Assembly (NCBI GenBank): GCA_043777235.1
Contig: JAYVQJ010000121.1
Location: forward strand, 1-38,002
Direction of reading: 5' to 3'
Source of the DNA: Planctomycetia bacterium
GTDB taxonomy: Bacteria > Planctomycetota > Planctomycetia > Planctomycetales > Planctomycetaceae
DNA length: 38,002 nucleotides
Each line of letters opens with the position of its first letter. Position 1 is the first letter of the stretch. This document shows, piece after piece, positions 2,001-38,002 of this stretch. A program made the translations under genes and the position numbers. Under the pieces are notes generated by a model, which had not been told where the DNA came from, did no database searches, and worked only from the letters and a program-made list of their open reading frames with translations.

Positions 2001-2059
2001 GTAGAACGGACGCCTACGTCCGTTCTTCGACAGCACCGACCGGACGTGGGCATCCGGTC
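2001..2059. repeat. Two hairpins 3' of the small lipoprotein gene
   Basis: Hairpin 1 (2001-2025) is gtag|aacggacg-ccta-cgtccgtt. Hairpin 2 (2038-2059) is gaccgga-cgtgggca-tccggtc. The second is repeated at 2334-2351 (ccggacg-tggg-cgtccgg) behind the paralogous gene. Confidence 0.75.
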
Positions 2060-2068
2060 TACTCAGCA

Positions 2069-2308
2069 TTATTGCCGCGCATCTTCCTCGACACCGGCTC
2101 GCAGCTTCTCGCGTTCGAGCTTGTATTCTTCAAAGGCCCGAATCGCTTCTGGGCCGAGATGATCGGGTCTCGTGGCAACCGGGCCATCGTGGAGGTAGTA
2201 CGGCGACGGTATGGGTGACTTGATTTCCGTCCGGCAGCCAACGGCCGACAGCAATAGCAAGCACGATATGGCAAACTCGCAGCCCCAAGCTTTCCTGTTT
2301 TGCCACAT
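2069..2308 (-). CDS. Small lipoprotein, paralog 2 (hypothetical)
   Basis: 79 aa. Signal peptide plus lipobox LLLLSAVGC. The C-terminal EEYKLEREKLRAGVEEDARQ is nearly identical to the upstream paralog. Confidence 0.7.
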   Translation of the reverse strand: MWQNRKAWGCEFAISCLLLLSAVGCRTEIKSPIPSPYYLHDGPVATRPDHLGPEAIRAFEEYKLEREKLRAGVEEDARQ

Positions 2309-2362
2309 AGCCCGACCTCTTCGCGTCGATCGACCGGACGTGGGCGTCCGGGCTACTCAGCA

Positions 2363-2611
2363 TTACTGCCGCGCGTCTTCCTCGACGCCGGCTCGCAGCT
2401 TCTCGCGATCGAGCTTGTACTCTTCGAGAGCCCGGACCTGATTGCTCAGCTTGAACTCGGGGCCGGCCGGGTAGTACTGGACGTCGTCCTTCAGATAGTA
2501 CGGGGACGGGAGCGTTTGCCCGCCGACTGATGTTTGGCAGCCGGTCGCGGCCAGCATCAAGGGGCACAACAACAACATCGTCACGCTCGCCGAGATTCCG
2601 TTCCACCGCAT
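2363..2611 (-). CDS. Small lipoprotein, paralog 1 (hypothetical)
   Basis: 82 aa. Lipobox LMLAATGC, a PSPYYLKDDVQYYPAGPEFKL core, and C-terminal EEYKLDREKLRAGVEEDARQ. Confidence 0.75.
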   Translation of the reverse strand: MRWNGISASVTMLLLCPLMLAATGCQTSVGGQTLPSPYYLKDDVQYYPAGPEFKLSNQVRALEEYKLDREKLRAGVEEDARQ

Positions 2612-2827
2612 GATTCGAGCCTCTCACCAAGTCCGTTTGGTCTGACACACACCTTTCTTCATCGGTCGTTACGACCGGAAACTTTGGAAAAGTTTGCCAA
2701 GTTTGACAGAACTTGGTGATTGGGTCCGGCAGGAATTGCCGGGAGCTGGTTTGAGAGTGTGAGGGTCGGGGAGCGCGGTCGTTCTTCACCGACACGCTCA
2801 CACTCTCTGACTCTCAAACACCACGAC

Positions 2828-5800
2828 TCACTGGTCGAGCGGAGGCGAATCGTGATCGCCGACCACATTGCCAGCGGGCAACTTCTCCGCCGCTTCTTTC
2901 GTTCGCTCGTTCTTGACGTAGTGCTGCAAGACTTGGCCGCGGTAGGTTCGCAGCGGGCGGACGAGCCGGCGTTCAAGATGTTGCTTGCGAGCCTCCCATT
3001 CGGCGACAGGAGCGATTCCCTCGGCCGACAAAGCATCCAACGTCGCGAAGGAAGTCTCGGCGGCGGTGATGCTCCGTTCGATGTCATTGAGCGCGACTCG
3101 CGATGACGTCGGCCGAAACTCGCCTCGAGCGCCCCAGCGAGCCAACAGCATTTGCAGCAGCGCGTTGATCTGATCGAACCGCTCGGTCTTATCGGGAATC
3201 GCTGCTGGCGTTGAATTCACGAATTGCAGCGCGTTGGCAACGTTGCGAATCGAGCGATCGGCCGGCGTCGAAAAGTAGATCGCTGCGAGCCGATGTCGCA
3301 GTTCGTTGGCCGGATCGCGATCTGTGCAGCGGTCACTCAATTCAACGACTTCTTGATGCAGGAACGGCGTGACGAGCGGATCGAATGGCGACTCGAAGCG
3401 GCGCAGTTGGTCGAGGTTTGCGTCGGTCAGTTGCGAGTTCTTCGCAAGCTCACCGATCTTTCGGAAATACTTCAGTCGCCGGTCATCGTCGGGATGCAGT
3501 CCCGACTCAGTCTTCTTGTGGCTGACTTGCTGAATCATCGCTCGCGTCGAGCCGGTCATGTGGTCTTTGACTTGTTTGCGATACGCCCAAAACTCGTCTT
3601 GATGCCGACGGATGATGGCTCGTGACAACTCCCATTCGCTCAGCCGAGCCGCGACATCGGCGTTGTCCGCTGCGTCGCCACCCCAAGCCAGCAAGAAGCG
3701 GCTGTGCTTGGCCAATTCCGTTTGCACGAGTTGCAGCTTGTTCTCCCAACGCATGACTTCGGTCGGCAGACGGAACGGCCACGTCGAACGAGACGCAACG
3801 TTGATGACCCCTCCGCGTTGACTCGCCAGTTCCTGAATTGCTTCGTGATTCAACATCGGCAACCGCAACGGAGCCGACCAATCCCAGCCGGCTGACGCCA
3901 ACAACTGCCGCACCTGCGGACGCTGCCAACGCTCGATGAATCCCTCGCGAGCGAATCCTTGTTCGGACTGCGTGCCGAGGAACAGCAATTCCCCCGTAGC
4001 AATCTCGACCGCCGCGACTTCGCGAAACACCGCCGACATCGTCGCCGCCAACGCTCGCACCGAGCGCAGGCCGAGATCAACGTGCTGAAATCGGATCGCG
4101 AACAAGCCCTCGTCGTTGAGGCGCTTGGCCGTCGCGTGCAGCGACTCGACCGTGAACGAGTTGCTTGCCTGCGACAACGAAGGTTGATCGGCCGAAGCAA
4201 CGATCACATCGAATGTCTCACGCATCGTCCGCACTGCGAGCGCCGGATCGCAGACGCGAATTTCCATTCGATCATCATTCATCGCCGAAGCAACACTGTC
4301 GCGCGACAGCAGGCTTCGACACAGACTTGTCACACCTCGATCCGCTTCGACACAGACGATTCGCTGCAACGGAAACACGGTCGCTGCCACAAGCGGTTCA
4401 CCCACTCGCAGGCCGAGCAGCAAGACGCTCTGCGGCCGCTCGTGAGTCACTAGCGGCAGCACCGTCGGCAACACATCCGGCAGAAATCTCGGAGCCAAAT
4501 TCGCATTTGTGGCGAGCGTCCCTTTCGGAATACCGTTCTCACGCACGAGGAATCGCGAACCAGCAAACTTCCACGCGGTCAGAGTCCCGCGATCACCTTC
4601 GACAACAACCGCCGCTCGTCCTTCGTCCAAAACGGAAAGCTGCTCCCACGGAATTTCCGCTCGTGAGGCAACGAAGACTCCTGTGTCGAACAACACCTTC
4701 GCCGCCAATTCCGGCCGATAACGCACCCAAATCGGAGCCGTCAGCGCGAAGAGCAGCATCGCAGCGACCACACCGGCACTCAACCTCGTGAGCCGGAACG
4801 CGCTAGCGTCCGGTTGTGTTGTGGCCATTGAACCGGACGCTAGCGCGTTCCGGCTAATGAGTTTTGTCCGACGAAGTCGATCAACTGCGACAACCAACAA
4901 CAGCAGGACGCTCGCGACGAATGCGAGATTCCACACACCAATCGACGGCAGCAGCCACATCGCCAACGTCGCAGAACTCAGCGAGGCCGCGACTCCAAAA
5001 AATGAACCACTGCGACCGATCAATGCACCAACACCGATCACGATCGGTCCCAGCACCACGCCGACTATCGCCATCCTCAGCGACTGCAACAGCCAGACTT
5101 GCGAGATTGTCGAGTTCTCCCACAGTGCCAGACGAACTCCGAGCGGGAACGCCGCTAAGAGCAACCACATCCAGCACACCAATCCCAAACCACCGACCAG
5201 CAGTTGTCGCGGCTGAGTTTTCCCGAACAACAAACCTCCGACAGCGATCCCGGCCACGAGCACCGACCACTCAAACGTCATGAGCGCAAACGAATCGGGA
5301 ATCAGTTGCCGACACAATCTCTGTCCGATCACCCACGCGATCCCTGCCGCGATCAGCCCGACAATGTGGGGCAGGTTTTCAACCTGTCCTTTCAATACCT
5401 TGGCAGGTTGGACGGGCAGGTTGAAAACCTGCCCCACGTTGTCGCGCGACCCGCGCACAAGCAGCGTCACGAACGCGATCAGCCCGCAAACCGAGGACAG
5501 CAACCCACAGCCATCCGGCCCGATGAGGCTCGCCAGTCCGAGTCCTCCGATCGCAAATGTCGTTGCGAAACCGACACCGAATGACGTCCGCCGTTCCGGG
5601 ACGATCAAACTCAGCGAGCAAATCGCGGGGACTCCGAGAGTCACCAGCGCCAACAACGTCAGACAGCAACACTGACCAATCAATGACGACGAAAAATCAA
5701 AACCAGTCCCTTCAACCGCTCGCCATGCAGCGGCGAACAGACTCGGCAGCGCGACCGACCAGGCCGACAACAGGAACAGCCGAATCGACGGAGCCACGAG

Positions 5801-5989: not shown

Positions 5990-6000
5990 CCTTGCCTCTT

Positions 6001-6065
6001 GAGGATGGGCACTCTTGCCCGTCGCTCGATTCGCAATCCTGGACGGGCAAGAGTGCCCATCCTCC
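6001..6065. repeat. Palindromic element, family A, copy 2
   Basis: gaggatgggcactcttgcccgtc (6001-6023) pairs with gacgggcaagagtgcccatcctcc (6042-6065). It starts 11 nt upstream of the ATG at 5989 of the minus-strand membrane protein gene. Confidence 0.9.
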
Positions 6066-6223
6066 GCAATCGCTGGGGCTTGTATCGCATCTCCAAATCA
6101 CCCGACAAGCCGATTCTTGGCGAACTGTTCGACGCCCGTTACCCTGCCGAACCGCGCGGCGGTCGGTCGTCGCAGCGGACCTGAAAATCTCCCGTTTCCT
6201 TTCGCATTCGAGCAGAGCATCTC

Positions 6224-7548: not shown

Positions 7549-7573
7549 GTAGGCGAGTCATTCCATGACTCGC
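7549..7573 (+). terminator. GTAG-led REP-like hairpin; possible xylA terminator
   Basis: gtag then gcgagtcat-tcc-atgactcgc (9-bp stem), starting 3 nt after the xylA stop and followed by ATTTCT. A second hairpin, ctcagttgc-gga-gcaactgag, lies about 60 nt downstream. Confidence 0.4.
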
Positions 7574-7675
7574 ATTTCTAACGTCGCTAGCCTCCCACTG
7601 ATTCCCGCGATCACTCGCAGCCACATTGGGAATCTCAGTTGCGGAGCAACTGAGCTACATAAGAGGAATCCTCCC

Positions 7676-8059: not shown

Positions 8060-8067
8060 ATTTGTTT

Positions 8068-8131
8068 CACGCGAAGACGCGAAGACGCAAAGGGCGAAAT
8101 CAAAACCTTTGCGGCTTCGCGTCTTCGCGTG
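8068..8131. repeat. Palindromic element, family K (CACGCGAAGACGCGAAGACGCAAAGG arms)
   Basis: A 26-nt left arm pairs with cctttgcggcttcgcgtcttcgcgtg (1 mismatch). It fills the hisI-hisG spacer. A related element is at 32861-32938. Confidence 0.9.
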
Positions 8132-8152
8132 GAAAACTCTTCCGAGGTTTTC

Positions 8153-9098: not shown

Positions 9099-9100
9099 AC

Positions 9101-10578: not shown

Positions 10579-10610
10579 GCGTGAACATCGCGGCGCGCTT
10601 TGCGGTTCCG

Positions 10611-17769: not shown

Positions 17770-17772
17770 CTT

Positions 17773-17802
17773 GGTGGGTCTCGATGACTCGGCCCACCCT
17801 AC
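17773..17802. repeat. Single arm of palindromic family V (GTAGGGTGSGYCGAGTCATCGAGACCCACC)
   Basis: ggtgggtctcgatgactcggcccaccctac is the reverse complement of the arm consensus seen at 23487-23515 and 37966-37995. It lies 3 nt downstream of the giant gene's stop. Confidence 0.85.
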
Positions 17803-20800: not shown

Positions 20801-23361
20801 GCGACCGGCTCGTCCCACTGCAAAGCGTAAATGCCGGGATCGGATTCCGTCAGCGGCCGATCGCGTTGAGCGTCCCATTCGCCGAGATCGTTCACGCTGC
20901 CAGAACTGACTCGCACGTTCGCCTTCGGCAACTGGCTGACGAATCGTCGTCGCAGCAGCTTGAGTCCTTCAATCTGTCCCAGCCAACCGTTCTTCTCGTC
21001 GCTCAAGCCCGCGAGTTTTTTCAGTTCGTCCGACTTCCCTTTATCGCCGGAGGTCGAACCCTTCGGCCCATCGCCGAGCGGGTCTTCGTCTTTCTCGCCA
21101 TCGAGCAGTTTTGCGACCGCATCGTTCTCGGCAGCGGCACCTTTCGCGAAGGTGACTCGCAGCGCGCGAGTCAGCGTGTTGGGCGGCGCGGGGATCACGT
21201 CCCACGGCAGCGAGCCATGTTCGTCAAACGCTTGCCAATCGGCCTCCTTGTCCGGGTTCGGCGGATACTTTTCGTTTGGGTTCGGCTTCAGCACGCTGAG
21301 CCGCACGCGGTACGCCTCGGTCTGCGGCACCGGAAGGACGACGCTGCCGAGAGCGATCGGCTTGTTGAACGCCAACACGATGTGCTGCTTCGAGCCACGT
21401 CCTTTCGGTGATTGCAGATATGTCAGCGAAAACTGCGTCTCGCCTCCCGATGGATGTTGAATCAGTCGGAACAGCCGCATGAAATCTCCGCGCGGATCGG
21501 GGACCACTTCATACGCCACGCGCGGCGGACGCTTCGCTCCGTACAAGGGCAAGCAGTTCGCGGGATCGGCATCTTCGGCGGCGGCCGCGTTCGCCAGCCA
21601 GTTCTCTTTCGCTTGAATCGACAACGCCAACTCGCCCGGCTTCGCGGCGATCCCTTCGAGCCCGCGCTTGCGAGTGGCCGTCGGCGTGAGCGAGAGAAAC
21701 GGCTTCACTTCTTTCGAGTCGATATCGACGGTCCAAACCGCATCGGTCGTCGTGTTGAGAATCTGAGCACCGACGAAGACCGATTTGTTGTCGCTCGCGA
21801 GATACCTCGGCCCGGTCCACGCCGCGAACGAGTGATGCCCCCACTTCTTGCGGCCTTGCAGATCGCACTCGATCAACGACACGCCGCTCTCCGCGACATA
21901 CGCCGACAGGAAGACTCGATCGCCGACCGTGCAACAACCAACCGGCGGTGTGTGATCCGCGAGCCAACCTCCCGAATCGTGATGCCCGTTGAGCCACGGC
22001 GAATTCTCCGGCGCGTGCATCAGCGTGTTGGGATAAACCGTCGTCTCGTAATTCAATCGCAGCGGCTCATAGCTGATCGCCTTCCACGAGTACTTTCCCG
22101 GCGCGACGAGCGCCCCGCTTTCATCCTTCAGATTCCAACCGGCTGTGTGCTCCCCGGCCGCGAACGTCTCGCGCGAGAGGACGTTCTTCACGCGACGTCC
22201 ATCCGGCCCGTCGATGACCATCGTGACCAGCCGGTCCATGTCGCTCTGCGACTTCGGCACATCGAACGTGATCTGCTTCGGGGCCTGTAGCCCGATTTCG
22301 CCGAAATCGGGAACCGGCACATTGGCCTCACCGAGATTCGTGAAGACATGCAGCCCCGCGATCTCCGCCACCTGAGGTCCGCCGTCGCTGCCGTAGGGGA
22401 TGTTCGTCGGCCGCTCGGTCTTTGTGACGAGCCATCGCAAGCCGCGCGTCGTCAGCGGCTTCGTGAATTGAATCCATCTTCCGCCGCTGCGCCGTTCGCT
22501 GAGGTCGGCGAACTTCTTCCATTCCTTCGTAGTCCCCGCGCGCGGATTGACCGAGTCATCGCCGACGAACGTTTGCAGTTCGTAAGCCGCAAAATTGTCA
22601 CGCAGCCAAACACCACTGAGCGTTTGCGGTTGCTCCCACGACAGCACGAACCACGCGGGGTTGATGTCCGTGATCGGCGGCGACGCGACGAAGCCGTTGT
22701 TGTTCTTGCCCGCGTTCCGCCACTCGCCGATCCCCGTGATGAGCCGACTGGCGGCGTAAGTGTTCTTGGTATTCGGCGGCGTGTATTCACGATCGGCATA
22801 CGCGAAGCCGGACGGCACAATGTTGTGCAGCCGCTCTTTGAAGAGCCGCAACGTGTGGACCACTGAGCCTCCGGACTCACGTTTTTCGCGCAGTAAGATC
22901 GCTCGCGTCTCGGTCTTCACCGGCAGAGTGAATAACACCCCCGCCGATTGTCGCGGTAGCGGTTCCAACTTCGTCCAGTGCTTCGCTTCTTTCGGATCGC
23001 CCGGCCCATCGACGTCTGCCTTCAGCACGAAAACGTCGCGCATCGTGCCGGTCAAAAAGATCGAGCCGACTGAAACCGGTCGCTTGAACGCGACTCGGTA
23101 GACAAATTCGGACGGCAGTCCTTCTTCGGCAACTCGTCCCGCATTCCAACCAATGTAAGTCGGCACGACGTTCGTCACGCCCAACACCGGCAGCAGTTGT
23201 TCCGCCTTGTCGGCAACAACGTCACCGTCCCGCCACATGCCGCTCTGAGCCTCATCGAGCACATCCGCCTTGAGCGCCAACTCGGCCGCGCGGACGTCTA
23301 GGCCACTCACGAGCCAACACAGCAACAGGCACATTCCCCGAACAGCGGGTGACTTTCGCAT
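17806..23361 (-). CDS. Giant secreted multidomain protein (1851 aa), function unknown
   Basis: Signal peptide MRKSPAVRGMCLLLCWLVSGLDVRA. Discoidin/galactose-binding-like segments. An FlgD-Ig-like segment (AGEHTAGWNLKDESGALVAPGKYSWKA). An NHL/beta-propeller-like segment (LAFDRQGNLYVFDN...IRVYEP). A CBM9/DOMON-like C-terminal domain (APVIDGKLNDWKTPDA...FHIGYDDQTLFVAYAV). A Lys/Asp-rich tail. Domain calls come from motif memory, not from a search. Confidence 0.85.
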   Translation of the reverse strand: MRKSPAVRGMCLLLCWLVSGLDVRAAELALKADVLDEAQSGMWRDGDVVADKAEQLLPVLGVTNVVPTYIGWNAGRVAEEGLPSEFVYRVAFKRPVSVGSIFLTGTMRDVFVLKADVDGPGDPKEAKHWTKLEPLPRQSAGVLFTLPVKTETRAILLREKRESGGSVVHTLRLFKERLHNIVPSGFAYADREYTPPNTKNTYAASRLITGIGEWRNAGKNNNGFVASPPITDINPAWFVLSWEQPQTLSGVWLRDNFAAYELQTFVGDDSVNPRAGTTKEWKKFADLSERRSGGRWIQFTKPLTTRGLRWLVTKTERPTNIPYGSDGGPQVAEIAGLHVFTNLGEANVPVPDFGEIGLQAPKQITFDVPKSQSDMDRLVTMVIDGPDGRRVKNVLSRETFAAGEHTAGWNLKDESGALVAPGKYSWKAISYEPLRLNYETTVYPNTLMHAPENSPWLNGHHDSGGWLADHTPPVGCCTVGDRVFLSAYVAESGVSLIECDLQGRKKWGHHSFAAWTGPRYLASDNKSVFVGAQILNTTTDAVWTVDIDSKEVKPFLSLTPTATRKRGLEGIAAKPGELALSIQAKENWLANAAAAEDADPANCLPLYGAKRPPRVAYEVVPDPRGDFMRLFRLIQHPSGGETQFSLTYLQSPKGRGSKQHIVLAFNKPIALGSVVLPVPQTEAYRVRLSVLKPNPNEKYPPNPDKEADWQAFDEHGSLPWDVIPAPPNTLTRALRVTFAKGAAAENDAVAKLLDGEKDEDPLGDGPKGSTSGDKGKSDELKKLAGLSDEKNGWLGQIEGLKLLRRRFVSQLPKANVRVSSGSVNDLGEWDAQRDRPLTESDPGIYALQWDEPVALRGLAIKEIDGQFTKVDVLDESRTETGDELDIAGRAGWTEVATYEQQRRDVGNGFGGLGLMNPQARYVDGYVDFGREIKTRAVRLRVVSQWKDNGQAACLGVRMDRGGRELDAKRCHVYGVAPVTYVGGELPVDSAVNDRIEIYSTVDAKLLREMPVVQPKEIAYSPDGKLWAISGKSVVAVTESGSRTRQSSDRSLATSATTESATSAITDLIAPTDLAFDRQGNLYVFDNAPERHHIRVYEPSKGKLLRTIGTDGGFKAGAWVPTRMGDVTAIGVDQEDQLWVVENQYWPKRVTVWSIDGTFKKELLGNTAYGGGGVLDPEDKSRLFYGSLEFEIDWKTRTSRLKNLTTLDGFNAGEVPIRVNDRMYVVTRPGFSERSVGIVYLYDTDKLKPAAAIGLAIDFDPLKKPEVLSKLGAPDLTKQCFIWTDRSGDGEVQSEEVKLFDRPKHIHGVSLFNRDLSAQQQSFRYTVKDFLPNGVPVYEVEDLLKRAPRDLASVAQRRQDPGFASRTLFRLDNGNFFRIGDDPWVKEAALRPDGTAAWNYPSEGASVQALTSCGPYHPGQVVSEFGIIGHETAHAGDLGEFVVLHANHGAWSVWTADGMLVGPIFRDLRTGARAWSMKEHERGMPMSELTAGQEHFAGYFCRTKDNKYYVVAGHNHISIAEVLGLDSAKRQSGEFEITPSDLLDAERWEQQQQRHEVFARAPVIDCYRVKEAPVIDGKLNDWKTPDAQMGTDADFHIGYDDQTLFVAYAVRGLGPLKNSGREFDRLFKTGASVDLQFGIDPEADENRQAPVEGDKRLLMTVAKLSAPSGAASGLPTATSKPDQPPPIAVLFDALVPGTPDDKRWRVVSPVAEVFFDRVSRIDGVKLAVEQYDNGYNLEAAIPLKSLGLTPTPNLRLKFDWGVLSTDQDGNVVLRRRYWSNQATGIVADAPSEARLTPHLWGHIRFHGIRSSAEDKLNDLEQIAGSTKKPGKDVKKDVTDILDDLDDKPAKKK
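20195..20243. repeat. 49-bp GTAG-terminated palindrome inside the giant CDS
   Basis: gtagccgaaGtcgccaga-cttcgatccgaac-tctggcgaGttcggctac has 17 of 18 arm positions complementary. It is translated GSRTRQSSDRSLATSAT in a Ser/Thr-rich linker. There is no second copy in this window. Confidence 0.6.
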
Positions 23362-23413
23362 GATCTCGCCTCTATGTCAGAAGGAGGAACGTCGCGCATT
23401 GACGAACAAAGTA

Positions 23414-23667
23414 GCCGTCATCGCTCCGCGTGACGAGCCTTGCGCAATTGATCCAGGGCTGGCTAGTTTGCCGTACCGCGGGGAACGTAGGGTGGCGTCG
23501 AGTCATCGAGACCCACCGGAATTTCACACAAGTGGTGGGTCTCGATGACTCGACCGCACCCTACATTTGACAAACTAGGCCGCCCTGGCGGTTGATCCCC
23601 GAATCATTGACGACTGAGGTGGTCGAGCGTCGTAGTCCAGAAGGCTCATCACGCGGAGCGATGATGG
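23414..23667. repeat. About 250-bp composite nested palindrome (three concentric inverted-repeat pairs)
   Basis: Outer pair: catcgctccgcgtgacgagcc (about 23418-23438) with ggctcatcacgcggagcgatg (23643-23663). Middle pair: ccagggctggctagtttg (about 23452-23469) with caaactaggccgccctgg (about 23571-23588). Inner pair: aacgtagggtggcgtcgagtcatcgagacccacc with ggtgggtctcgatgactcgaccgcaccctacatt (23484-23567). Confidence 0.85.
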
Positions 23668-24454
23668 TTATTTCTCCACAAACCAAACATTGCGATAGCG
23701 GACTTCGCTGTTGTGGTCTTGCAGGTTGATCGGGCCGGGGTCGGGGCCTTCAGGGAGGGGCGACGAGGTCGTGGCGTGAGTCAGTTCGACGTTGTCGTGG
23801 ACAACGACTCCGTTGTGCCGCACGGTCAGGCGACCGTTCTTGGTCTTCTGGCCATTGGTGAATTGAGTGGCGGTGAAGTCGATGTCGTAAGTTTGCCAGG
23901 ACAGCGGCGGGAAGGACATGCTGATGTCCGGTTCTTTGATCGACGGGATGCCGCCGCATTCGTGGTTGTGCGGCTTCAGTCCGAACGAATCGAGCATCTG
24001 CACTTCATAGCGGCTTTGCAGATAACACCCGCTGTTCCCGCGGCTCGGCACCGAGCGTCGAACTCTTGCGGACGATCCGTTTCAGTTCGCCGATGGCCTT
24101 GCCATCCGTCGTGAGTGTCATCTCACCGTCTTTGATCGTTGCGGTCTGTTCGTCCGCCTTGAACGTCGTGACGCCGGACGTCGTCTGTGCTTCGTGCGGA
24201 GCGATTTCATTTTTGTCCCAACCGTCTCCGGGCAGCCCACCGTTTCGCCACACCGCGTGAAATTTTCCCTTGCCGATCGCGACGATTTGCACGCCGAGTT
24301 TCTTCTTGCCGTCCGAGCGAGTGACTTCGCCGACGTACTCGCCTTGAACGAGAACGTCGGGATCATCCGGTGTGACGTCCTTCGGTTCCGCCGCGCGCAG
24401 AGACGAGAGTACGCAGAGGATCAAACATGTGGAAAAATAGACGCGAACGAACAT
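23668..24454 (-). pseudogene. DUF1080 (3-keto-disaccharide hydrolase-like) gene disrupted by a frameshift and probable internal deletion
   Basis: Two overlapping ORFs lie in different frames. ORF 24005..24454 has a signal peptide, an N-domain and ...RKSSTLGAEP. ORF 23668..24051 reads ...RGNSGCYLQSRYEVQMLDSFGL...NLQDHNSEVRYRNVWFVEK. The frames switch at about 24040-24051, and the segment normally between the STLGA and GNSG.YLQ motifs is missing. Confidence 0.65.
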
Positions 24455-24505
24455 GAGCCGGCCTCACGAAATAGTTCCAACTTCGACGGTTTTGTGTTTC
24501 ATTAC

Positions 24506-24718
24506 TCCGAAGGAGTTGCGTCACATAGCCCAGGGTTGCCCGCGCAGCGAGCTACCCTGGGTTTGGATTTCAATGAGTTGATGTACCCCGAAGGGGTTCC
24601 GTCATCGAGATTTCTTAAATGACGCAACCCTTTCAGGGTAGGCCGGGCATGGTCTCATAATCCCAGGGTAGCCGCGATGCGCGGCAACCCTGGGCTTTGT
24701 GACGCAATCCCTTCGGGA
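24506..24718. repeat. Composite palindrome built from inverted copies of a CCGAAGG-GTTGCGTCA / CCCAGGGTAGCCGCG unit
   Basis: tccgaaggagttgcgtcacatagcccagggttgcccgcgcagcgagctaccctggg is mirrored by cccagggtagccgcgatgcgcggcaaccctgggctttgtgacgcaatcccttcggga. The inner pair is taccccgaaggggttccgtcat with atgacgcaaccctttcagggta. Confidence 0.85.
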
Positions 24719-24778
24719 TAAAGGCAGAGGCACACCAATCCAAACTTAGAACGACGGCCACTCTTCACTCGGCTCAAG

Positions 24779-26776
24779 TTACGGATTCGAGACCGACTTC
24801 ACCGTTGGCAACACACCTAACCGCAGACTCGTCGGATGCGCGGCCGAGCGAAAGACTCGGTGAGTCGCCTTCCGGAAATCGTCGGGCTTCGCGAAGTAGA
24901 TGTTGTCGACGAACGTCTGCGGGTTGCGATCGGCCAGCGGGAACCAAGTGCTTTGGATTTGCACCATCAGGCGATGTCCCTTTTGGAAACGGTGCAGCAC
25001 GTCGAGCAACTCGAAGCGGACGCGCGTCGGTTCGCCCGGCTTGAAGGGTTCGGGCTTGGCGTAGTCGTTGCGGAAGCGGCCGCGGAAAACTTCGCTGCGG
25101 ATCATCATTTGATAACCGGCCAGCGGCGTTCCTTCGGCAGCATCCGGGCGGACGTCGATCAGCTTCACGATCCAGTCGGCGTCGGTGCCGGTGGTCGAGA
25201 CCCACAGGTCCGCTTCGAGCGGGCCGGCAACGACGGTGTCTTCCGTGAACGGCTCGGTTTGATACGTCAGCACGTCCGGCCGGCGCGAAGCAAAGCGTTG
25301 GTCATCGACCATGTACTCGATCGTCATCTTCGGAGTGATGATCTCGCAGTACGGGACCGGCTTGTTCGGATCGCTGACGAATTCGTCGTAGCCCTCAATG
25401 TAGCCCTCTCGTTCCGCGAGAGGATCAGCCGAGCGCGCGGTTGTCGCGTTCTTTTCATTGGAAGTTCGTTTCGGAGATCGGCTTTCCTCTCGCGGAACGA
25501 GAGGGCTACTTTCCGGGGCGGACCAATCCAGTTTGCCTCCCTCGCGCACGAAGAGTTGCTTTGACTCCGTCTTCTTCGGTGGCCATTGATCGAAAGTCCG
25601 CCAGACGTTTGAGCCGGTCTCGAAGACGGTCGCCTCGGCGGGAGCAGGAATCTCTTTGTCTTTGAGATACTTCTCGAAGAACGGCAGCTCGATGTGTTCG
25701 CGGTAGAACGCTCCGGTCTTCGATCCAAACGGGACGTTGCCGAGCTTGTCGCCATCGACGCTGGCCCAACCGCCGTGATGCCACGGGCCAACGACCAGCA
25801 CGTTGTTGACCTTCGGGTTCTGCTTCTCGACCGAGTGATACGTCTTGAACGAGCCGTACAAATCCTCGGCGTCGTACCAGCCGGTGACGGTCATCACGGC
25901 GGGGGCGACGTTCTTCAGATGCGGGATTAAGGCTCGCTTCTGCCAGAACTCGTCCCGGTTCGGGTGCAGCATCATGTCCTTCCAGAACGGGATCTGCCCC
26001 TTGAGGTACAGCTTGTCGATGTTCTCGACCGAGCCCGCCTCCAAAAACATCTTGTAGCCGTCGGGAGTCGGGTAGATGAACGGCTTCGCGGGTTCGGTCG
26101 AAGGCTTCGTCCGTTCGTGATCGTTGCTCGACAGCCAGCGGAACGCGTGAGCCAAGAAGAACGAGCCGTGATGCAGGAAGTCATCAAAATACCAATCGCC
26201 GACGGGAGCCTGCGGCGAGACCGCCTTCAGCGCCGGATGTGCGTCGATCATCCCTGCCGCCGCGTAGAAGCCGGGGTACGAGATCCCCGCCATACCGACT
26301 CGGCCGTTGTGATGCGGGATGTTCTTCAGCAGCCATTCGATCGTGTCGAACGTGTCCGAGCTTTCGTCGATGTCGGTCGGCTTCGACTTGTTCGGCAAGT
26401 GCGGCGTGACTTGGACGAAGTCTCCCTCGGAGGCGAACCGCCCGCGCACGTCCTGATTGACGAAGATGTATCCCGCCTTCACGAAGTGCTCACTGGGCCC
26501 GATCTTCGACGGGTACTTGTCTTCGCCATACGGAGCGACGTTGTACGGCGTCCGCTTCATCATCATCGGATATTTCTTGGTCGTGTCGCGCGGCACAAAG
26601 ACCGACGTGAACAGCTTCACGCCGTCACGCATCGGAATCATGTGCTCGGACTTCGTGTAGTTCAGCCGCAGATAACTTTCGAGCTGCGACGGCTCTTGAG
26701 CCACCGCTCGATCGGAAACCTGAGCACCGATCAACGACACGGTCAGCAGCAACGCAACGCGAACGAGTTGTCTCAT
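24779..26776 (-). CDS. CocE/NonD family hydrolase (X-Pro dipeptidyl-peptidase S15-like), secreted
   Basis: 665 aa with a signal peptide. MIPMRDGVKLFTSVFVP, RTPY, GISYPGFY (GxSYxG nucleophile) and a C-terminal beta-sandwich ending ...HRVFRSAAHPSLRLGVLP-like. It carries a 110-bp palindromic insert in frame. Confidence 0.9.
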   Translation of the reverse strand: MRQLVRVALLLTVSLIGAQVSDRAVAQEPSQLESYLRLNYTKSEHMIPMRDGVKLFTSVFVPRDTTKKYPMMMKRTPYNVAPYGEDKYPSKIGPSEHFVKAGYIFVNQDVRGRFASEGDFVQVTPHLPNKSKPTDIDESSDTFDTIEWLLKNIPHHNGRVGMAGISYPGFYAAAGMIDAHPALKAVSPQAPVGDWYFDDFLHHGSFFLAHAFRWLSSNDHERTKPSTEPAKPFIYPTPDGYKMFLEAGSVENIDKLYLKGQIPFWKDMMLHPNRDEFWQKRALIPHLKNVAPAVMTVTGWYDAEDLYGSFKTYHSVEKQNPKVNNVLVVGPWHHGGWASVDGDKLGNVPFGSKTGAFYREHIELPFFEKYLKDKEIPAPAEATVFETGSNVWRTFDQWPPKKTESKQLFVREGGKLDWSAPESSPLVPREESRSPKRTSNEKNATTARSADPLAEREGYIEGYDEFVSDPNKPVPYCEIITPKMTIEYMVDDQRFASRRPDVLTYQTEPFTEDTVVAGPLEADLWVSTTGTDADWIVKLIDVRPDAAEGTPLAGYQMMIRSEVFRGRFRNDYAKPEPFKPGEPTRVRFELLDVLHRFQKGHRLMVQIQSTWFPLADRNPQTFVDNIYFAKPDDFRKATHRVFRSAAHPTSLRLGVLPTVKSVSNP
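25400..25509. repeat. Palindromic element, family S (GTAGCCCTCTCGYTCCGCGAGAGG arms), inside a CDS
   Basis: gtagccctctcgttccgcgagagga (25400-25424) pairs with tcctctcgcggaacgagagggctac (25485-25509). It is translated ...SSPLVPREESRSPKRTSNEKNATTARSADPLAEREGY... Intergenic copies are at 36536-36661 and 37131-37243. Confidence 0.9.
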
Positions 26777-27323: not shown

Positions 27324-27328
27324 CGTTT

Positions 27329-31736: not shown

Positions 31737-31753
31737 AGGCGGATCCAAAAACC

Positions 31754-31832
31754 AAAACTAACCCGAAGCGTCAGCGAGGGCGATTCGCGATTGAATTTCC
31801 AAGGCCCCTCGCTGACGCTTCGGGTTAGTTTT
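31754..31832. repeat. Palindromic element, family P, copy 2
   Basis: aaaactaacccgaagcgtcagcgagggc pairs with gcccctcgctgacgcttcgggttagtttt. It lies between convergent gene ends. Confidence 0.9.
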
Positions 31833-31846
31833 GAAATCGCCTCGAA

Positions 31847-33856: not shown

Positions 33857-33892
33857 GCGACAACGAGCTGAAGGCGCTTGGTTTCGGTCATT

Positions 33893-33963
33893 AGCCGGCA
33901 CGCGCTAGCGTCCGGTTCGAGAGTCCATCGACCTTCCGAACCGGACGCTAGCGCGTACCGGCT
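33893..33963. repeat. Palindromic element, family N, intergenic copy
   Basis: agccggcacgcgctagcgtccgg (33893-33915) pairs with ccggacgctagcgcgtaccggct (33941-33963). It lies between convergent gene ends. Confidence 0.9.
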
Positions 33964-33999
33964 GATCTGTGATTCGTGCCTCAAGTAAGTACCGTCGGG

Positions 34000-34966: not shown

Positions 34967-35217
34967 GCGGTTCATCCCAATGGGATGGCAGAAAGTAGCC
35001 GGGGGTCGGAGCGGAACGTAGACCCCCGGAAGGCTTGAAACGAAAGAGTGCATCCCGGAGGGATGCCAGAAATCTTCGATGATCTTCCAACGAACTTCGA
35101 TCGCTTCTGGCATCCCTTCAGGATGCGTTTTGTGTATTGCACGATTCCGGTGGTCTTCGCTCCGCTCCGACCACCGGCTACTTTCTTTCATCCCTCCGGG
35201 ATGAACCGTAGCGGCTG
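34967..35217. repeat. About 250-bp composite palindrome of GTAG-led hairpin units
   Basis: gcggttcatcccaatgggatggcagaaaGTAGccgggggtcggagcgga... is mirrored on the other strand by ...ccggtggtcttcgctccgctccgaccaccggCTACtttctttcatccctccgggatgaaccgta. The central hairpins are gcatcccggagggatgc and gcatcccttcaggatgc. Confidence 0.85.
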
Positions 35218-36531: not shown

Positions 36532-36535
36532 AAAC

Positions 36536-36661
36536 GTAGCCCTCTCGCTCCGCGAGAGGAAAGCCGAACGTCTCTCGACATTCGATCTCACGGTCAACAC
36601 GTCATGGGACATGACAGCGCAATTCGCGCTCGGCTGTCCTCTCGCGGAGCGAGAGGGCTAC
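36536..36661. repeat. Palindromic element, family S, intergenic copy (C/G stem variant)
   Basis: gtagccctctcgctccgcgagaggaaagccga (from 36536) pairs with tcggctgtcctctcgcggagcgagagggctac (to 36661). Each arm is GTAG plus its own 8-bp hairpin cctctcgc/gcgagagg. Confidence 0.9.
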
Positions 36662-36683
36662 AGTGGCTCAAACGAGGTGCCGT

Positions 36684-36905
36684 ATGTGGTTTTACTACGT
36701 CTTCGGAAGTTTCTTCGGTGGGCTGCTGGCCTTCCTGGTGTTGAGCGTCCTCATTCTGTTGGTCGTCTGCTGGTGTTGTGGCGTGAGTCTCGATTCGCTG
36801 TTGGATTGGGGAGACCAGAAGGCATCGCTGACCTGTTTTCATTGCGGTCAGCAAACCTCGGCCAGCGGCAAGACGTGCGAGCACTGCGGCGGCGAACTGC
36901 AATGA
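36684..36905 (+). CDS. Small membrane-anchored zinc-ribbon protein, paralog 1
   Basis: 73 aa from the ATG at 36684 (GAGG about 8 nt upstream). One N-terminal transmembrane helix (FFGGLLAFLVLSVLILLVVCWCC). The C-terminal LTCFHCGQQTSASGKTCEHCGGEL is a CxxC-x11-CxxC motif. Confidence 0.6.
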   Translation: MWFYYVFGSFFGGLLAFLVLSVLILLVVCWCCGVSLDSLLDWGDQKASLTCFHCGQQTSASGKTCEHCGGELQ

Positions 36906-36918: not shown

Positions 36919-37122
36919 ATGATGGGCTTCGGAATCGTTAATTGGATCTTCCTCGGTGCCACGGTCTTGGCCGTGATCTTCGGATTGGCCAAGGTATTCC
37001 CGATGATGATCGGCTTGTTCAAATCGGTCGGGGCGGGCCATGCGATGCTCACCTGTCCGCATTGCGGTCAGCAAACGTCTCATGCCGGCGGCCAATGCGA
37101 TGCGTGCGGTCGTGAGTTGTGA
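36919..37122 (+). CDS. Small membrane-anchored zinc-ribbon protein, paralog 2
   Basis: 67 aa with a transmembrane helix (IVNWIFLGATVLAVIFGLA). The C-terminal LTCPHCGQQTSHAGGQCDACGREL is the zinc-ribbon motif. It shares the cattgcggtcagcaaac nucleotide block with paralog 1. Confidence 0.6.
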   Translation: MMGFGIVNWIFLGATVLAVIFGLAKVFPMMIGLFKSVGAGHAMLTCPHCGQQTSHAGGQCDACGREL

Positions 37123-37130
37123 ACTTCAAC

Positions 37131-37243
37131 GTAGCCCTGTCGCTCCGCGACAGGAAAGCCGACAGTGCGCGAGGTTAGAGAAAACCAGCAAGCTCGTGAG
37201 TTCCATCCCATCGGCAATTCCTGTCGCGGAGCGACAGGGCTAC
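37131..37243. repeat. Palindromic element, family S, intergenic copy (G/C stem variant)
   Basis: gtagccctgtcgctccgcgacaggaaagccga (from 37131) pairs with tcggcaattcctgtcgcggagcgacagggctac (to 37243). Relative to 36536-36661, the stem position C>G is matched by G>C on the partner strand. Confidence 0.9.
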
Positions 37244-37257
37244 TGTGAACGTGCCTC

Positions 37258-37923
37258 ATGCCCAGCCTCACCGTCGAAAATTATCTCAAAGCCATTTGGC
37301 AGATCGCCGCGACGACAGGTTCGTCGTCGGTCTCGACTGGCAAGCTCGCGCAGAGTTTGAAGGTCTCGCCCGGCACCGTCACCAGCATGCAGAAGGCTCT
37401 GGCTGAGGCGGGGCTCGCCGAGTACCGGCCGTATGAAGGGGTCAGCCTGACCGAAGCGGGGCGCACCCTTGCGCTGCGGATGCTGCGACGACATCGGTTG
37501 ATCGAGTTATTTCTCGTCAAAACGCTCGGCCTGACTTGGGATCAAGTCCACGAGGAAGCCGAGAACATGGAGCACGCGGTCAGCGATTTCCTGATTGACC
37601 GCATCGACGATTACCTCGGCAATCCCGCGTGCGATCCGCACGGCGATCCGATTCCAACAGCCAGCGGTGATCTGCGGACCAATGGCGAGGCAAGCCAGTC
37701 GCTCTGCACCGTTCCCGCCGGATTCAACGTGCGACTGGTCCGCGTGCTGAATCAAGATGCTGACTTCTTGCGCTACCTGACCGAGTCGGACCTGTCGATC
37801 GGCGCGACCGCGTTCGTCGAGCAAGTGAATGACTCCGCTGGACTCGTGTCGCTGCGTCGGGGAGACCGCTCCATCGCGATGGGCCGCGCGGCCGCTGAGC
37901 AGCTAATGGTCGTCGTGCAATGA
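37258..37923 (+). CDS. DtxR/MntR family metal-dependent transcriptional regulator with a C-terminal FeoA/SH3-like domain
   Basis: 221 aa. TVENYLKAIWQI, the wHTH LAQSLKVSPGTVTSM, RRHRLIELFL, EEAENMEHAVS (metal ligands), and a C-terminal SH3-like segment. Confidence 0.9.
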   Translation: MPSLTVENYLKAIWQIAATTGSSSVSTGKLAQSLKVSPGTVTSMQKALAEAGLAEYRPYEGVSLTEAGRTLALRMLRRHRLIELFLVKTLGLTWDQVHEEAENMEHAVSDFLIDRIDDYLGNPACDPHGDPIPTASGDLRTNGEASQSLCTVPAGFNVRLVRVLNQDADFLRYLTESDLSIGATAFVEQVNDSAGLVSLRRGDRSIAMGRAAAEQLMVVVQ

Positions 37924-37945
37924 CACTCGGACTTCGTTCGTGCAT

Positions 37946-38002
37946 GGCTGGCTAGTTCTTCAAACGTAGGGTGCGGTCGAGTCATCGAGACCCACCACTT
38001 GT
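37946..38002. repeat. Left half of the composite family-V element, cut by the window end
   Basis: ggctggctagtt...aacgtagggtgcggtcgagtcatcgagacccacc reproduces the order of the middle and inner arms seen at 23455-23515. Confidence 0.8.

What the first reader, a model, noticed from the sequence alone, without database searches (positions are those of the whole stretch)
2001..37969. Sequence-unrelated palindromic families share a GTAG (often AACGTAG) leader outside a hairpin, the REP/REPIN architecture
At least seven different repeat types begin with GTAG immediately 5' of a stem. They are 2001 (gtag|aacggacg..cgtccgtt), 7549 (gtag|gcgagtcat..atgactcgc), and 25400/36536/37131 plus their mirrored arms (gtagc|cctctcgc..gcgagagg). 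The rest are 34995 and its mirror near 35190 (gtag|ccgggggtc..gacccccgg), 24668 (gtag|ccgcg..cgcgg), 23487/23561-64/37966/17799-17802 (gtagggtg...) and 20195/20240. Many are preceded by AAC. In enterobacterial and pseudomonad REPs, a conserved 5' GTAG next to the hairpin is the site recognised and cleaved by RAYT (TnpA_REP, Y1 HUH) transposases, and inverted REP doublets (REPINs/BIMEs) are the mobile unit. A shared GTAG across many families here suggests one mobilisation chemistry acting on a diverse repeat population in a lineage where this is not well characterised. No RAYT gene lies in the window.
Basis: partly seen in the sequence, partly recalled or inferred. Interest (0 to 1): 0.7.

Follow-up and report, generated by a model that had tools for sequence, protein, structure and literature searches.

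The report
GTAG-tagged REP hairpin repeats in a planctomycete
The window is dotted with small hairpin repeats that each begin with GTAG, the hallmark of REP elements handled by a RAYT transposase. The pattern is real and correctly read, but this kind of element was already catalogued in planctomycetes in 2013.

Summary
GTAG is by far the most enriched tetranucleotide at the 5' foot of perfect hairpins in the window (14 seen, 0.38 expected, 37-fold). It sits on at least six different stems.

The interpretation also holds. The main family is GTAGC-CCTCTCGC-TCC-GCGAGAGG, with three inverted doublets in the window. It is the repeat that flanks a conserved RAYT-type Y1 HUH transposase in related DNA. 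Of 79 metagenomic loci encoding this transposase, 56 carry GTAG hairpin doublets beside the gene. Most of the rest carry the same hairpins tagged GTAC. The transposase keeps the HUH motif, the catalytic tyrosine and the residues that contact GTAG in E. coli TnpAREP.

Families B, E and G recur in other planctomycete genomes with GTAG kept and stems covarying. Two doublets are in-frame insertions in protein genes, which shows past insertion. One claimed site (24668) does not fit, and "AAC" is only an A-rich context.

The window has no RAYT. Its source genome could not be found, so RAYT presence there is untested.

Novelty is low. Di Nocera et al. 2013 described the GTAG-REP superfamily, including planctomycetes with several families and several RAYT genes. 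This is a new member of a known kind.

The parts
36533..36661 (.). Family A head-to-head doublet (AAC)GTAGC-CCTCTCGC-TCC-GCGAGAGG ... mirror arm-CTAC. Intergenic, 2 nt after the aminotransferase stop.
   Evidence: The same arm and the same 126-nt doublet length lie upstream of the RAYT gene in L119.
37128..37243 (.). Family A head-to-head doublet, CCTGTCGC/GCGACAGG variant (a compensatory C-G to G-C change). Lies upstream of the DtxR-like gene.
   Evidence: The G..C variant is the commonest form in other genomes, 89 of 160 copies.
25397..25512 (.). Family A head-to-head doublet lying in frame inside the S15/CocE-type peptidase gene 24779-26776(-). It encodes residues ~422-460.
   Evidence: PDB 4pf1_A aligns to query 38-422 and 461-655, with only 2 chain residues across the gap.
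23409..23441 (+). Family A' arm GTAGC-CGTCATCGC-TCC-GCGTGACG. Its degenerate mirror arm is at 23641-23673 and has lost CTAC.
   Evidence: The same arm, with one compensatory pair change, forms two tandem doublets just upstream of the RAYT gene P0069 in a Planctomycetaceae MAG (L198).
23641..23673 (-). Degenerate partner arm of the A' doublet. The 199-nt spacer holds the family B element.
   Evidence: (I17)
23484..23567 (.). Family B head-to-head doublet AACGTAG-GGTGGCGTCGAGTCATCGAGACCCACC plus its mirror. It is part of a longer ~135-nt palindromic element (about 23455-23590) nested in the A' spacer.
   Evidence: B-type arms with GTAG also occur in L036, L081 and L109.
37963..38002 (+). Family B arm, cut by the window end.
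   Evidence: (D17, I2)
17772..17802 (-). Solitary family B arm, 4 nt from the stop of the 1851-aa gene.
7549..7658 (.). Family C head-to-head doublet: GTAG-GCGAGTCAT-TCC-ATGACTCGC and GTAG-CTCAGTTGC-TCC-GCAACTGAG on the opposite strand. Both arms have the same layout but unrelated stems. Intergenic.
   Evidence: No copy in 1.1 Mb of related loci.
2001..2062 (.). Family D head-to-head doublet: GTAG-AACGGACG-CCTA-CGTCCGTT and GTAG-ACCGGATG-CCCA-CGTCCGGT on the opposite strand. In the second arm, TAG is the stop codon of a small minus-strand gene.
2334..2356 (-). Single family D arm GTAGC-CCGGACG-CCCA-CGTCCGG after the stop of the tandem paralogue. It was duplicated along with the gene (117-nt direct repeat D2).
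20195..20243 (.). Family E head-to-head doublet with a 2-nt spacer: GTAGC-CGAAGTC-GCCA-GACTTCG and GTAG-CCGAACTC-GCCA-GAGTTCGG on the opposite strand. The arms differ by one compensatory pair. It lies in frame inside the 1851-aa gene.
   Evidence: The window protein carries 13-19 extra residues exactly here relative to homologues P0001-P0004. E-type doublets occur in L003, L009, L034 and L093.
22287..22311 (+). Single GTAG-CCCGATTTC-GCC-GAAATCGGG hairpin inside the 1851-aa gene. Its status is uncertain, since chance or an old insertion would both fit.
   Evidence: No other copy was found.
34995..35029 (+). Family G arm GTAG-CCGGGGGTC-(13-nt loop)-GACCCCCGG, inside the composite palindrome 34968-35208.
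   Evidence: (I1). G-type arms also occur in L040, L114 and L131.
35147..35181 (-). Family G mirror arm GTAG-CCGGTGGTC-(13-nt loop)-GACCACCGG. It shows a compensatory change relative to the left arm.
24502..24721 (.). Composite inverted repeat holding GTAG at 24552(-) and 24668(+). Both tags are embedded in longer stems and face inward, so it does not fit the REP form.
   Evidence: (I5)

Best explanation
These are REP elements of the GTAG-tagged superfamily: short hairpins with an unpaired GTAG guide tetranucleotide at the 5' foot. Most are paired head-to-head into REPIN/BIME-like doublets. They are non-autonomous. A RAYT (TnpAREP) Y1 HUH enzyme encoded elsewhere in the genome most likely binds the hairpin and GTAG on single-stranded DNA and cuts and rejoins it, spreading and maintaining copies without target duplications.

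Shown here:
- The GTAG-hairpin form and its enrichment.
- The doublet organisation.
- Stem covariation.
- Physical linkage of families A and A' to one conserved RAYT clade in related genomes.
- Conservation of the catalytic and GTAG-contact residues in that clade.
- Two insertion events into genes.

Inferred, not shown:
- That the source genome encodes this RAYT.
- That families B, C, D, E and G are served by the same or by paralogous RAYTs.
- That the elements are still mobile.
For: - GTAG is the top 5' flank of hairpins in three data sets: 37-fold in the window, 60-fold on 37 distinct stems in 771 kb of PVC genome loci, and 59-fold in the RAYT loci.
- The two free positions of the family A stem are complementary in 154 of 160 copies, as G..C or C..G.
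- L057 carries a RAYT-like gene with a family A REP about 30 nt past its stop.
- 56 of 79 RAYT loci have GTAG hairpin doublets, typically on both sides of the gene. Fourteen of the 16 remaining loci examined have the same hairpins tagged GTAC.
- L198, from a Planctomycetaceae MAG, has A'-type doublets abutting the RAYT start.
- The RAYT alignment shows NHVH (HUH), YIAxNP (Tyr motif) and an invariant GRFWQQDGFDHLVRS. This matches E. coli W94, Q95, E100 (as D), H101 and R104 (residues named in PMC6006769).
- The protein hits NCBIfam REP_Tyr_transpos at E = 3e-16. Many relatives carry PF01797, and JGI names some of them RayT.
- 69% of classed copies are in head-to-head doublets. There is no target-site duplication.
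- Two in-frame insertions are shown against homologues and against a solved structure.
- Families B, E and G recur in other genomes with GTAG retained and stems covarying.
Against: - The source genome was not identified, so RAYT presence there is untested. The window itself has none.
- The RAYT clade scores 59.6 bits, below NCBIfam's 80-bit equivalog cut-off.
- Families C, D, F and H have no copy in about 1.1 Mb of related loci. Family H does not fit the form, and family B arms fold weakly.
- The three family A doublets share arms and length but not spacer sequence. This is not what a doublet copied as a unit predicts.
- None of the 79 RAYT loci is flanked by B, E or G type arms.
- Many other palindromic families in the window lack GTAG, so one chemistry does not explain the whole repeat population.
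Confidence: 0.85

Rival explanations
1. The GTAG hairpins are locally selected structural signals, such as transcription terminators, mRNA 3'-end stabilisers or protein-binding sites. On this view they arose in place, and GTAG partly reflects TAG stop codons. No transposase is involved.
For: - Family D arms at 2059(-) and 2353(-) use TAG as the stop codon of the gene they follow.
- One family A arm (36560-36540, minus strand) matches a terminator-like pattern.
- Family E loops are GCCA, GTGA, GCAA or GTAA on the GTAG strand, which resemble GNRA loops.
- REPs are reported to affect mRNA stability and termination (PMC6006769 background).
Against: - Terminator-like sites are not enriched over shuffles (11 against 21.2, and 26 against 20.5), and only one GTAG arm is flagged.
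- GTAG lies on both outer ends of doublets, so it cannot be a stop codon in most copies.
- Two doublets sit in frame inside genes.
- The same 24-nt sequence occurs at unrelated loci in 53 assemblies.
- The same sequence brackets a transposase gene.
- This view is compatible with a secondary host role but not with an origin in place.
Confidence: 0.05
2. They are MITEs or ends of IS200/IS605-type insertion sequences. On this view they are moved by a DDE transposase or a classical IS200 TnpA rather than by a RAYT.
For: - Inverted-repeat doublets of 87-126 nt resemble MITEs.
- IS200/IS605 ends also carry a hairpin with a guide tetranucleotide (PMC6006769).
- The RAYT clade has a weak IS200 hit, E = 0.003.
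Against: - There is no target-site duplication: 44 of 60 doublets have none, and the rest match chance.
- The linked gene scores 59.6 bits for REP_Tyr_transpos against 17.8 bits for IS200.
- The linked gene is flanked by symmetric doublets on both sides, not by distinct left and right ends.
- No transposase of either type lies in the window.
Confidence: 0.04
3. All GTAG families in the genome are serviced by one RAYT with relaxed stem specificity, rather than by one RAYT per family.
For: - Single RAYT genes are flanked by arms with different stems. Examples are L127 (GATCTTGC and CATCTCGC), L145, L148 and L172.
- The GTAG-contact motif is invariant across the clade, while stems vary and the tag varies between GTAG and GTAC.
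Against: - In 79 loci the flanking arms always keep the C.TC.C.C-TCC layout. They are never B, E or G type.
- The literature reports repeat-specific REPtrons in species with several families (PMC3733652) and generally one tnpAREP gene per REP type (PMC6006769).
Confidence: 0.25
4. The GTAG-hairpin association is a chance or codon-usage artefact.
For: GTAG is over-represented overall in the window (122 against 68 expected). Part of that excess could come from coding sequence.
Against: - 14 observed against 0.38 expected at hairpin feet.
- The association is reproduced in two independent sequence sets.
Confidence: 0.01

Closest known systems
GTAG-tagged REP superfamily (Di Nocera, De Gregorio and Rocco 2013, BMC Genomics 14:522; PMC3733652)
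   Same: - An unpaired GTAG sits at one end of a 6-13 bp stem with a short loop.
- Several families coexist in one genome.
- Head-to-head dimers predominate, 20-100 bp apart.
- Stems vary by compensatory changes.
- Intragenic in-frame copies occur.
- REPtrons are specific to a repeat family.
- The PVC superphylum is explicitly included: R. baltica, Planctomyces limnophilus, P. brasiliensis and Opitutus terrae. GTAG-20 is attributed to both O. terrae and R. baltica.
   Different: - The published consensus sequences are in a figure that is not held, so I could not tell whether family A equals one of GTAG-1 to GTAG-24.
- A GTAC tag variant is not among the degenerate forms that paper lists (GYAG, GYRG, GTRG, GTMG, GTGG).
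REPIN-RAYT systems of Pseudomonas fluorescens SBW25 (Bertels and Rainey 2011, cited in PMC3733652; details from my own knowledge)
   Same: - Two inverted REPs form a doublet.
- The RAYT gene is flanked by doublets on both sides.
- The elements are non-autonomous.
   Different: - In SBW25 the whole doublet, spacer included, is the conserved replicating unit. Here the three window doublets share arms and length but not spacer sequence.
- The same REP core is shared across orders and two phyla, rather than being specific to a species group.
E. coli REP/BIME with TnpAREP (RayT, b0228; structure 4ER8, cited in PMC6006769)
   Same: - GTAG guide tetranucleotide at the hairpin foot.
- HUH and Tyr motifs.
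- W94, Q95, H101 and R104 conserved, with E100 replaced by D.
   Different: - Only about 25% identity to E. coli RayT by tblastn.
- The planctomycete clade has an extra insertion of about 55 residues in the N-terminal half.
- The planctomycete clade lacks the E. coli C-terminal extension.
- The stems are simple 8-9 bp with a TCC loop, not the bulged E. coli REPs.
- By motifs (NHVH, WQ, YIAxNP, about 220 aa) it looks nearest to subclasses 2.4 and 2.7 of PMC6006769. No phylogeny was run.
Rickettsia palindromic elements (RPE) and intragenic REPs of Opitutus terrae (PMC3733652)
   Same: Palindromic repeats are inserted in frame into protein-coding genes, adding short hydrophilic peptide segments.
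   Different: RPEs are longer and have no known RAYT link. Here the inserted elements are GTAG doublets of a RAYT-linked family.
IS200/IS605 insertion sequences
   Same: - A Y1 HUH enzyme.
- A hairpin with a guide tetranucleotide.
- Single-strand chemistry without target duplication.
   Different: - The gene is not carried inside a mobile unit with distinct left and right ends.
- NCBIfam IS200 scores 17.8 bits against a cut-off of 55.

Membership tests
GTAG-tagged REP / REPIN elements | Short (20-40 nt) palindrome that folds into a stable hairpin as a single strand | tested here: met
   Arms of families A, A', C, D and G fold at -7.8 to -13.4 kcal/mol, with z-scores of -2.9 to -6.3 against shuffles. 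Family B is weak.
GTAG-tagged REP / REPIN elements | Conserved GTAG (GT[AG]G) lying 0-2 nt 5' of the hairpin foot and unpaired | tested here: met
   - 37-fold enrichment in the window.
- Unpaired in A, A', B, C, E and G.
- Not met at 24668, and half-paired at 2001.
- GTAG is retained in copies of A, B, E and G from other genomes.
GTAG-tagged REP / REPIN elements | Many dispersed copies per genome, mainly between genes | tested here: inconclusive
   - About 22 arms lie in 38 kb. Ten of the 13 elements are intergenic and three are in frame inside genes.
- The genome-wide count cannot be made because the source genome was not found.
GTAG-tagged REP / REPIN elements | Inverted doublets (REPIN/BIME; head-to-head with GTAG outside) | tested here: met
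   - Window doublets exist for A (three), A', B, C, D, E and G.
- 152 of 221 classed copies in the genome loci are head-to-head.
- Spacer sequence is not conserved.
GTAG-tagged REP / REPIN elements | Stem maintained by compensatory changes | tested here: met
   - The free pair of family A is complementary in 154 of 160 copies, as two alternative pairs.
- Arm-to-arm compensations occur in E and G.
- Many stem variants occur around one RAYT clade.
REPtron (RAYT gene flanked by its cognate REPs) | A RAYT gene bracketed by the same REP family | tested here: met
   Met in related DNA: L057, 56 of 79 metagenome loci (L119 carries the exact family A arm), and L198 for A'. Not testable for the source genome.
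REPtron (RAYT gene flanked by its cognate REPs) | RAYT present in the same genome as the REPs | not testable with these tools
   - The window has none.
- Three exact-protein look-ups found no record of the source contig.
RAYT / TnpAREP (Y1 HUH) | HUH motif, catalytic Tyr motif (Y...NP) and GTAG-contact residues | tested here: met
   - NHVH, YIAxNP and an invariant GRFWQQDGFDHLVRS are aligned to E. coli RayT.
- PF01797 is recorded on many relatives.
RAYT / TnpAREP (Y1 HUH) | Scores above NCBIfam NF047646 (REP_Tyr_transpos, equivalog) cut-off | tested here: not met
   59.6 and 60.1 bits against a cut-off of 80, at E about 1e-16. It is a clear homologue, but outside the curated equivalog, which is built mainly on proteobacterial sequences.
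RAYT / TnpAREP (Y1 HUH) | Cleaves and rejoins single-stranded REP DNA in a GTAG-dependent way | not testable with these tools
   This needs biochemistry.
CGTC-tagged REPs | CGTC at the hairpin foot, 8-9 bp stem starting with A/T pairs, 4-5 nt loop, CCA tail | tested here: not met
   CGTC is not among the enriched flank tetramers.
MITE (DDE-mobilised) | Terminal inverted repeats flanked by a target-site duplication | tested here: not met
   44 of 60 doublets have no flanking direct repeat, and the rest are at chance level.

The most novel reading that the evidence does not exclude
One REP-RAYT lineage, with a 24-nt REP core identical apart from one compensatory pair, is shared by at least three orders of Planctomycetota and by Verrucomicrobiaceae/Prosthecobacter. 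This points either to exchange of the REPtron across PVC phyla or to freezing of the REP sequence by an invariant RAYT recognition surface. That contrasts with the species-level turnover and vertical inheritance described for proteobacterial REPIN-RAYT systems. In this lineage the single REP, not the doublet with its spacer, may be the copied unit. The doublets repeatedly become in-frame protein insertions.
Probability: 0.35. Interest if true: 0.5.

Novelty: new member of a known kind. Interest (0 to 1): 0.3.

Why it matters
The finding gives a correct annotation for about 20 otherwise unexplained hairpins in this window. These hairpins break assemblies and create spurious ORF starts.

It ties one widespread planctomycete REP family to a specific, very abundant RAYT clade: 2295 protein clusters at E <= 1e-30.

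It documents two clean cases where a REP doublet became part of a protein. One is a 38-residue insertion in an S15 peptidase. The other is a 13-19 residue insertion in a giant beta-propeller protein.

None of this changes the known picture of REP biology. The sharing of one REP core across phyla, and the doublets with conserved length but unrelated spacers, are the only points a specialist might want to follow up.

Tried and rejected
- **Source genome.** Three exact-protein look-ups found nothing, so genome-wide counts and the RAYT-in-genome test were not possible.
- **Known RNA families and tRNAs.** Rfam and tRNA scans of the window found none.
- **Terminator explanation.** Terminator-like sites are not enriched, and only one GTAG arm is flagged.
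- **MITE explanation.** No target-site duplications.
- **Positional conservation.** The only orthologous neighbourhood among the fetched loci is the DtxR gene in L116, at 59% amino-acid identity. It has no family A doublet upstream and carries a different palindrome there. It is too distant to count as a strain comparison.
- **RAYT next to B, E or G copies.** None was found in the fetched loci.
- **Second RAYT type in L071.** It has no hairpins nearby.
- **RAYT homologue in L010 (Verrucomicrobiaceae).** It is flanked by CGGACA-CTCC-TGTCCG hairpins without a consistent GTAG. These resemble the window's non-GTAG GGGCA-CTCC-TGCCC family, but I did not treat this as evidence.
- **Anchored covariation count over mixed stem registers.** The result was muddled by register shifts, so I relied on the clean two-position test instead.
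- **Match to published families.** I could not test whether family A equals a published GTAG-n family, because the consensus figure is not held.

Full report
**Setting.** The window is about 59% G+C. It encodes ordinary chromosomal genes: LeuA, HisG, an S15 peptidase, an ABC ATPase, a DtxR-like regulator and others. One gene carries DUF1559, a domain typical of planctomycetes. The DtxR gene is 78% identical in DNA to a MAG labelled Schlesneria (L116). The organism is therefore probably a member of the Planctomycetaceae. There are no tRNAs and no Rfam families. Three exact-protein look-ups failed to find the source contig.

**Checking the observation.** GTAG occurs 122 times on both strands, against 68 +/- 7 in dinucleotide shuffles. 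Sixteen of these are followed within 0-3 nt by a hairpin. I tabulated every tetramer lying 0-1 nt 5' of a perfect hairpin (stem >=7 bp). GTAG is first, with 14 cases against 0.38 expected, a 37-fold excess. Only the overlapping TAGC comes close. With stems >=8 bp, GTAG sits on six different stems in the window.

Single-strand folding shows GTAG unpaired at the foot of a stable hairpin for families A, A', C, E and G. The hairpin is weak and bulged for family B. The tag is half paired at 2001. At 24668 GTAG lies inside a longer stem, so that site does not fit. "AAC" before GTAG holds for only four arms. In 160 copies from other genomes the context is simply A-rich. The families are not all unrelated: A and A' share GTAGCC..TCGCTCCGCG, and A and C share a TCC loop and an 8-9 bp stem.

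**The elements.**
- Family A is GTAGC-CCTCTCGC-TCC-GCGAGAGG. It forms three head-to-head doublets with GTAG outside, at 25397-25512, 36533-36661 and 37128-37243.
- Family A' (23409-23441) has a decayed partner at 23641-23673. A ~135-nt family B element is nested in its spacer.
- Family C (7549-7658) is a doublet whose arms have the same layout but unrelated stems.
- Family D is a doublet at 2001-2062 plus a single arm at 2334-2356. In two of its arms TAG is the stop codon of a small gene.
- Family E (20195-20243) is a tight doublet whose arms differ by one compensatory pair.
- Family G (34995-35029 and 35147-35181) lies inside a 240-nt composite palindrome and also shows an arm-to-arm compensation.

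**Relatives elsewhere.** I scanned one genome per species for GTAGCCCTNTCGYTCCGCGANAGG, which has 22 specified bases. Their labels are:
- Schlesneria, Planctomyces and Planctomycetaceae.
- Limnoglobus and Gemmataceae.
- Lacipirellula and Pirellulales.
- Nine Verrucomicrobiaceae/Prosthecobacter assemblies, some on contigs of 0.7-3.4 Mb.

The two free positions of the pattern are complementary in 154 of 160 copies, as G..C (90) or C..G (64). This is an unbiased sign that the stem is maintained. In these 771 kb GTAG is again the top hairpin tag: 37 distinct stems, 60-fold enriched. Of 221 classed copies, 69% are in head-to-head doublets, 27% are single, and tail-to-tail and tandem pairs are rare. 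Doublets are 87-126 nt long and have no flanking target duplication. Families B, E and G also occur in these other genomes, with GTAG kept and stems covarying. Families C, D, F and H do not.

**The transposase.** I used E. coli RayT as a probe. A 1140-nt Limnoglobus contig (L057) encodes a 223-residue Y1 HUH protein with a family A REP about 30 nt past its stop. It hits NCBIfam REP_Tyr_transpos at E = 3e-16. The score is 59.6 bits, below the 80-bit equivalog cut-off, and IS200 scores only 17.8 bits.

A metagenome scan with this protein returned 79 loci at 42-74% identity. In 56 of them GTAG hairpins lie within 400 nt of the gene. The typical layout is one head-to-head doublet ending 10-30 nt before the start and another beginning 10-30 nt after the stop. 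Stems follow the pattern C.TC.C.C-TCC. L119 has the exact window arm in a 126-nt doublet, the length of window 36536-36661. I examined 16 of the remaining 23 loci. Fourteen have the same hairpins tagged GTAC instead of GTAG.

A named example is L198, from a Planctomycetaceae MAG on a 604-kb contig. Two tandem doublets, GTAGC-CTTCATCGC-TCC-GCGTGAAG, end 20 nt before the RAYT start. This is the window's A' arm with one compensatory change.

The alignment with E. coli RayT shows the HUH motif (NHVH), the tyrosine motif (YIAxNP) and an invariant GRFWQQDGFDHLVRS. That segment corresponds to W94, Q95, E100 (here D), H101 and R104. PMC6006769 names these residues as contacting GTAG. The clade is large, with 2295 protein clusters at E <= 1e-30. 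Many carry PF01797, JGI names some of them RayT, and NCBI names place them in Pirellulaceae, Lacipirellulaceae, Gemmataceae and Planctomycetaceae. A profile built from the clade finds nothing in the window.

**Evidence of insertion.** Two doublets lie in frame inside genes.
- The family A doublet at 25397-25512 lies in the S15/CocE-type peptidase gene. The solved homologue 4pf1_A aligns to residues 38-422 and 461-655, with two residues of its own across the gap. The doublet is therefore a 38-residue insertion.
- The family E doublet lies in frame in the 1851-residue protein. The four best homologues lack 13-19 residues exactly there.

These cases show that the elements arrived by insertion. 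They also show that "extragenic" is not strict in this genome.

**Mechanism.** The best reading is the standard one for REPs. A RAYT encoded elsewhere recognises the hairpin and its GTAG guide on single-stranded DNA. It then cuts and rejoins through a phosphotyrosine intermediate, without a target duplication. The form, the linkage, the conserved residues and the insertions are shown here. Activity, the presence of the gene in this genome, and service of families B-G are inferred. Whether one enzyme handles all families is open. Single RAYT genes tolerate different stems in their flanks. However, those flanks never include B, E or G types, and the literature reports family-specific REPtrons.

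Terminators are not a general explanation. MITEs are not either. A secondary host role is not excluded.

**Comparison with what is known.** Di Nocera et al. 2013 (PMC3733652) defined the GTAG-tagged REP superfamily with 24 families. They included the PVC superphylum and listed R. baltica, Planctomyces limnophilus and P. brasiliensis. They noted several coexisting families and many tyrosine transposase genes in R. baltica. They also described head-to-head dimers, compensatory stem variants, intragenic in-frame copies, and a family (GTAG-20) attributed to both O. terrae and R. baltica. Quentin et al. 2018 (PMC6006769) classified the enzymes and described REPtrons.

The finding is therefore a new member of a known kind. 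I could not check whether family A equals a published family, because the consensus figure is not held.

**What remains odd.**
- The three window doublets share arms and length but not spacer sequence. This does not fit a doublet copied as a unit.
- The C doublet pairs two unrelated stems.
- A GTAC tag alternates with GTAG under an invariant protein motif.
- One REP core spans two phyla.

These are modest leads rather than surprises.

Noticed in passing
window 25397-25512 (gene 24779-26776, minus strand): A family A REP doublet is a 38-residue in-frame insertion in an S15/CocE-type peptidase. PDB 4pf1_A aligns on both sides of it, with only 2 residues across the gap.
   Followed up: yes
window 20195-20243 (gene 17806-23361, minus strand): A tight GTAG doublet encodes GSRTRQSSDRSLATSAT inside a beta-propeller region of an 1851-residue protein. 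The closest homologues lack 13-19 residues there. The peptide TES flanks it on both sides.
   Followed up: yes
window 4782-4864 and 5356-5447 (ORF 2828-5989, minus strand): Two palindromic doublets without GTAG lie in frame between hydrophobic helices of a 1053-residue spermidine-synthase-like membrane protein. They look like insertions but were not compared with homologues. The 4782 family recurs at 33888-33966 and has TTAG, TCAG or GTGAG at the hairpin foot.
   Followed up: partly
window 1723-1794, 6000-6066, 9036-9099: A separate doublet family, GGAGGAT-GGGCA-CTCC-TGCCC-GTC, has no GTAG. It is also present in Schlesneria and Planctomyces MAG loci (L018, L020, L086, L089, L101, L108). Its GGAGGATG creates a spurious ATG start at 9041.
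   Followed up: partly
window 10607-10716, 31753-31833, 30072-30139, 8065-8134, 27233-27334, 28571-28647: Several further long, near-perfect intergenic palindromes lack GTAG. The ACCCGAAGCGTCAGCGAGGG type and the 30072 type have relatives in L016, L096 and L116. Their origin is unknown. PMC6006769 mentions class 3 Y1 genes in planctomycetes with atypical CnGA-footed structures, which I did not test.
   Followed up: no
window 23409-23673: Elements are nested. A ~135-nt family B palindromic element sits inside the spacer of a family A' doublet, and the right arm of that doublet has decayed.
   Followed up: partly
window 17135-17229, 17691-17785, 23669-23763: A 95-nt direct repeat in three copies. 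It is the conserved C-terminal coding end (..VRYRNVWFVEK, stop) of three paralogous minus-strand genes, not a mobile repeat.
   Followed up: partly
window 36663-36905 and 36919-37122: Two small paralogous genes, each a transmembrane helix plus a CxxC...CxxC zinc ribbon, lie between the two family A doublets.
   Followed up: no
window 2060-2620: Two tandem paralogous small genes on the minus strand each end in GAG TAG followed by a family D hairpin. The hairpin was duplicated with the gene (117-nt direct repeat, 86% identity).
   Followed up: partly
L132, L133, L141-L143, L154, L155, L157, L160, L161, L163, L167, L176, L179 (RAYT flanks): In these RAYT loci the flanking hairpins have the usual stems and TCC loop, but the tag is GTAC instead of GTAG. 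The protein's GRFWQQDGFDHLVRS motif is unchanged.
   Followed up: partly
L010 3182-4003: A Verrucomicrobiaceae RAYT homologue, 34% identical to the L057 protein, is flanked by CGGACA-CTCC/AGAG-TGTCCG hairpins without a consistent GTAG. Their loops and stems resemble the window's GGGCA-CTCC-TGCCC family.
   Followed up: no
one search hit list: Many RAYT clade members sit on contigs of only 0.9-1.2 kb, as expected if the flanking REPs break assemblies. JGI names a large share of them 'type I restriction enzyme R subunit', which looks like an annotation error.
   Followed up: no
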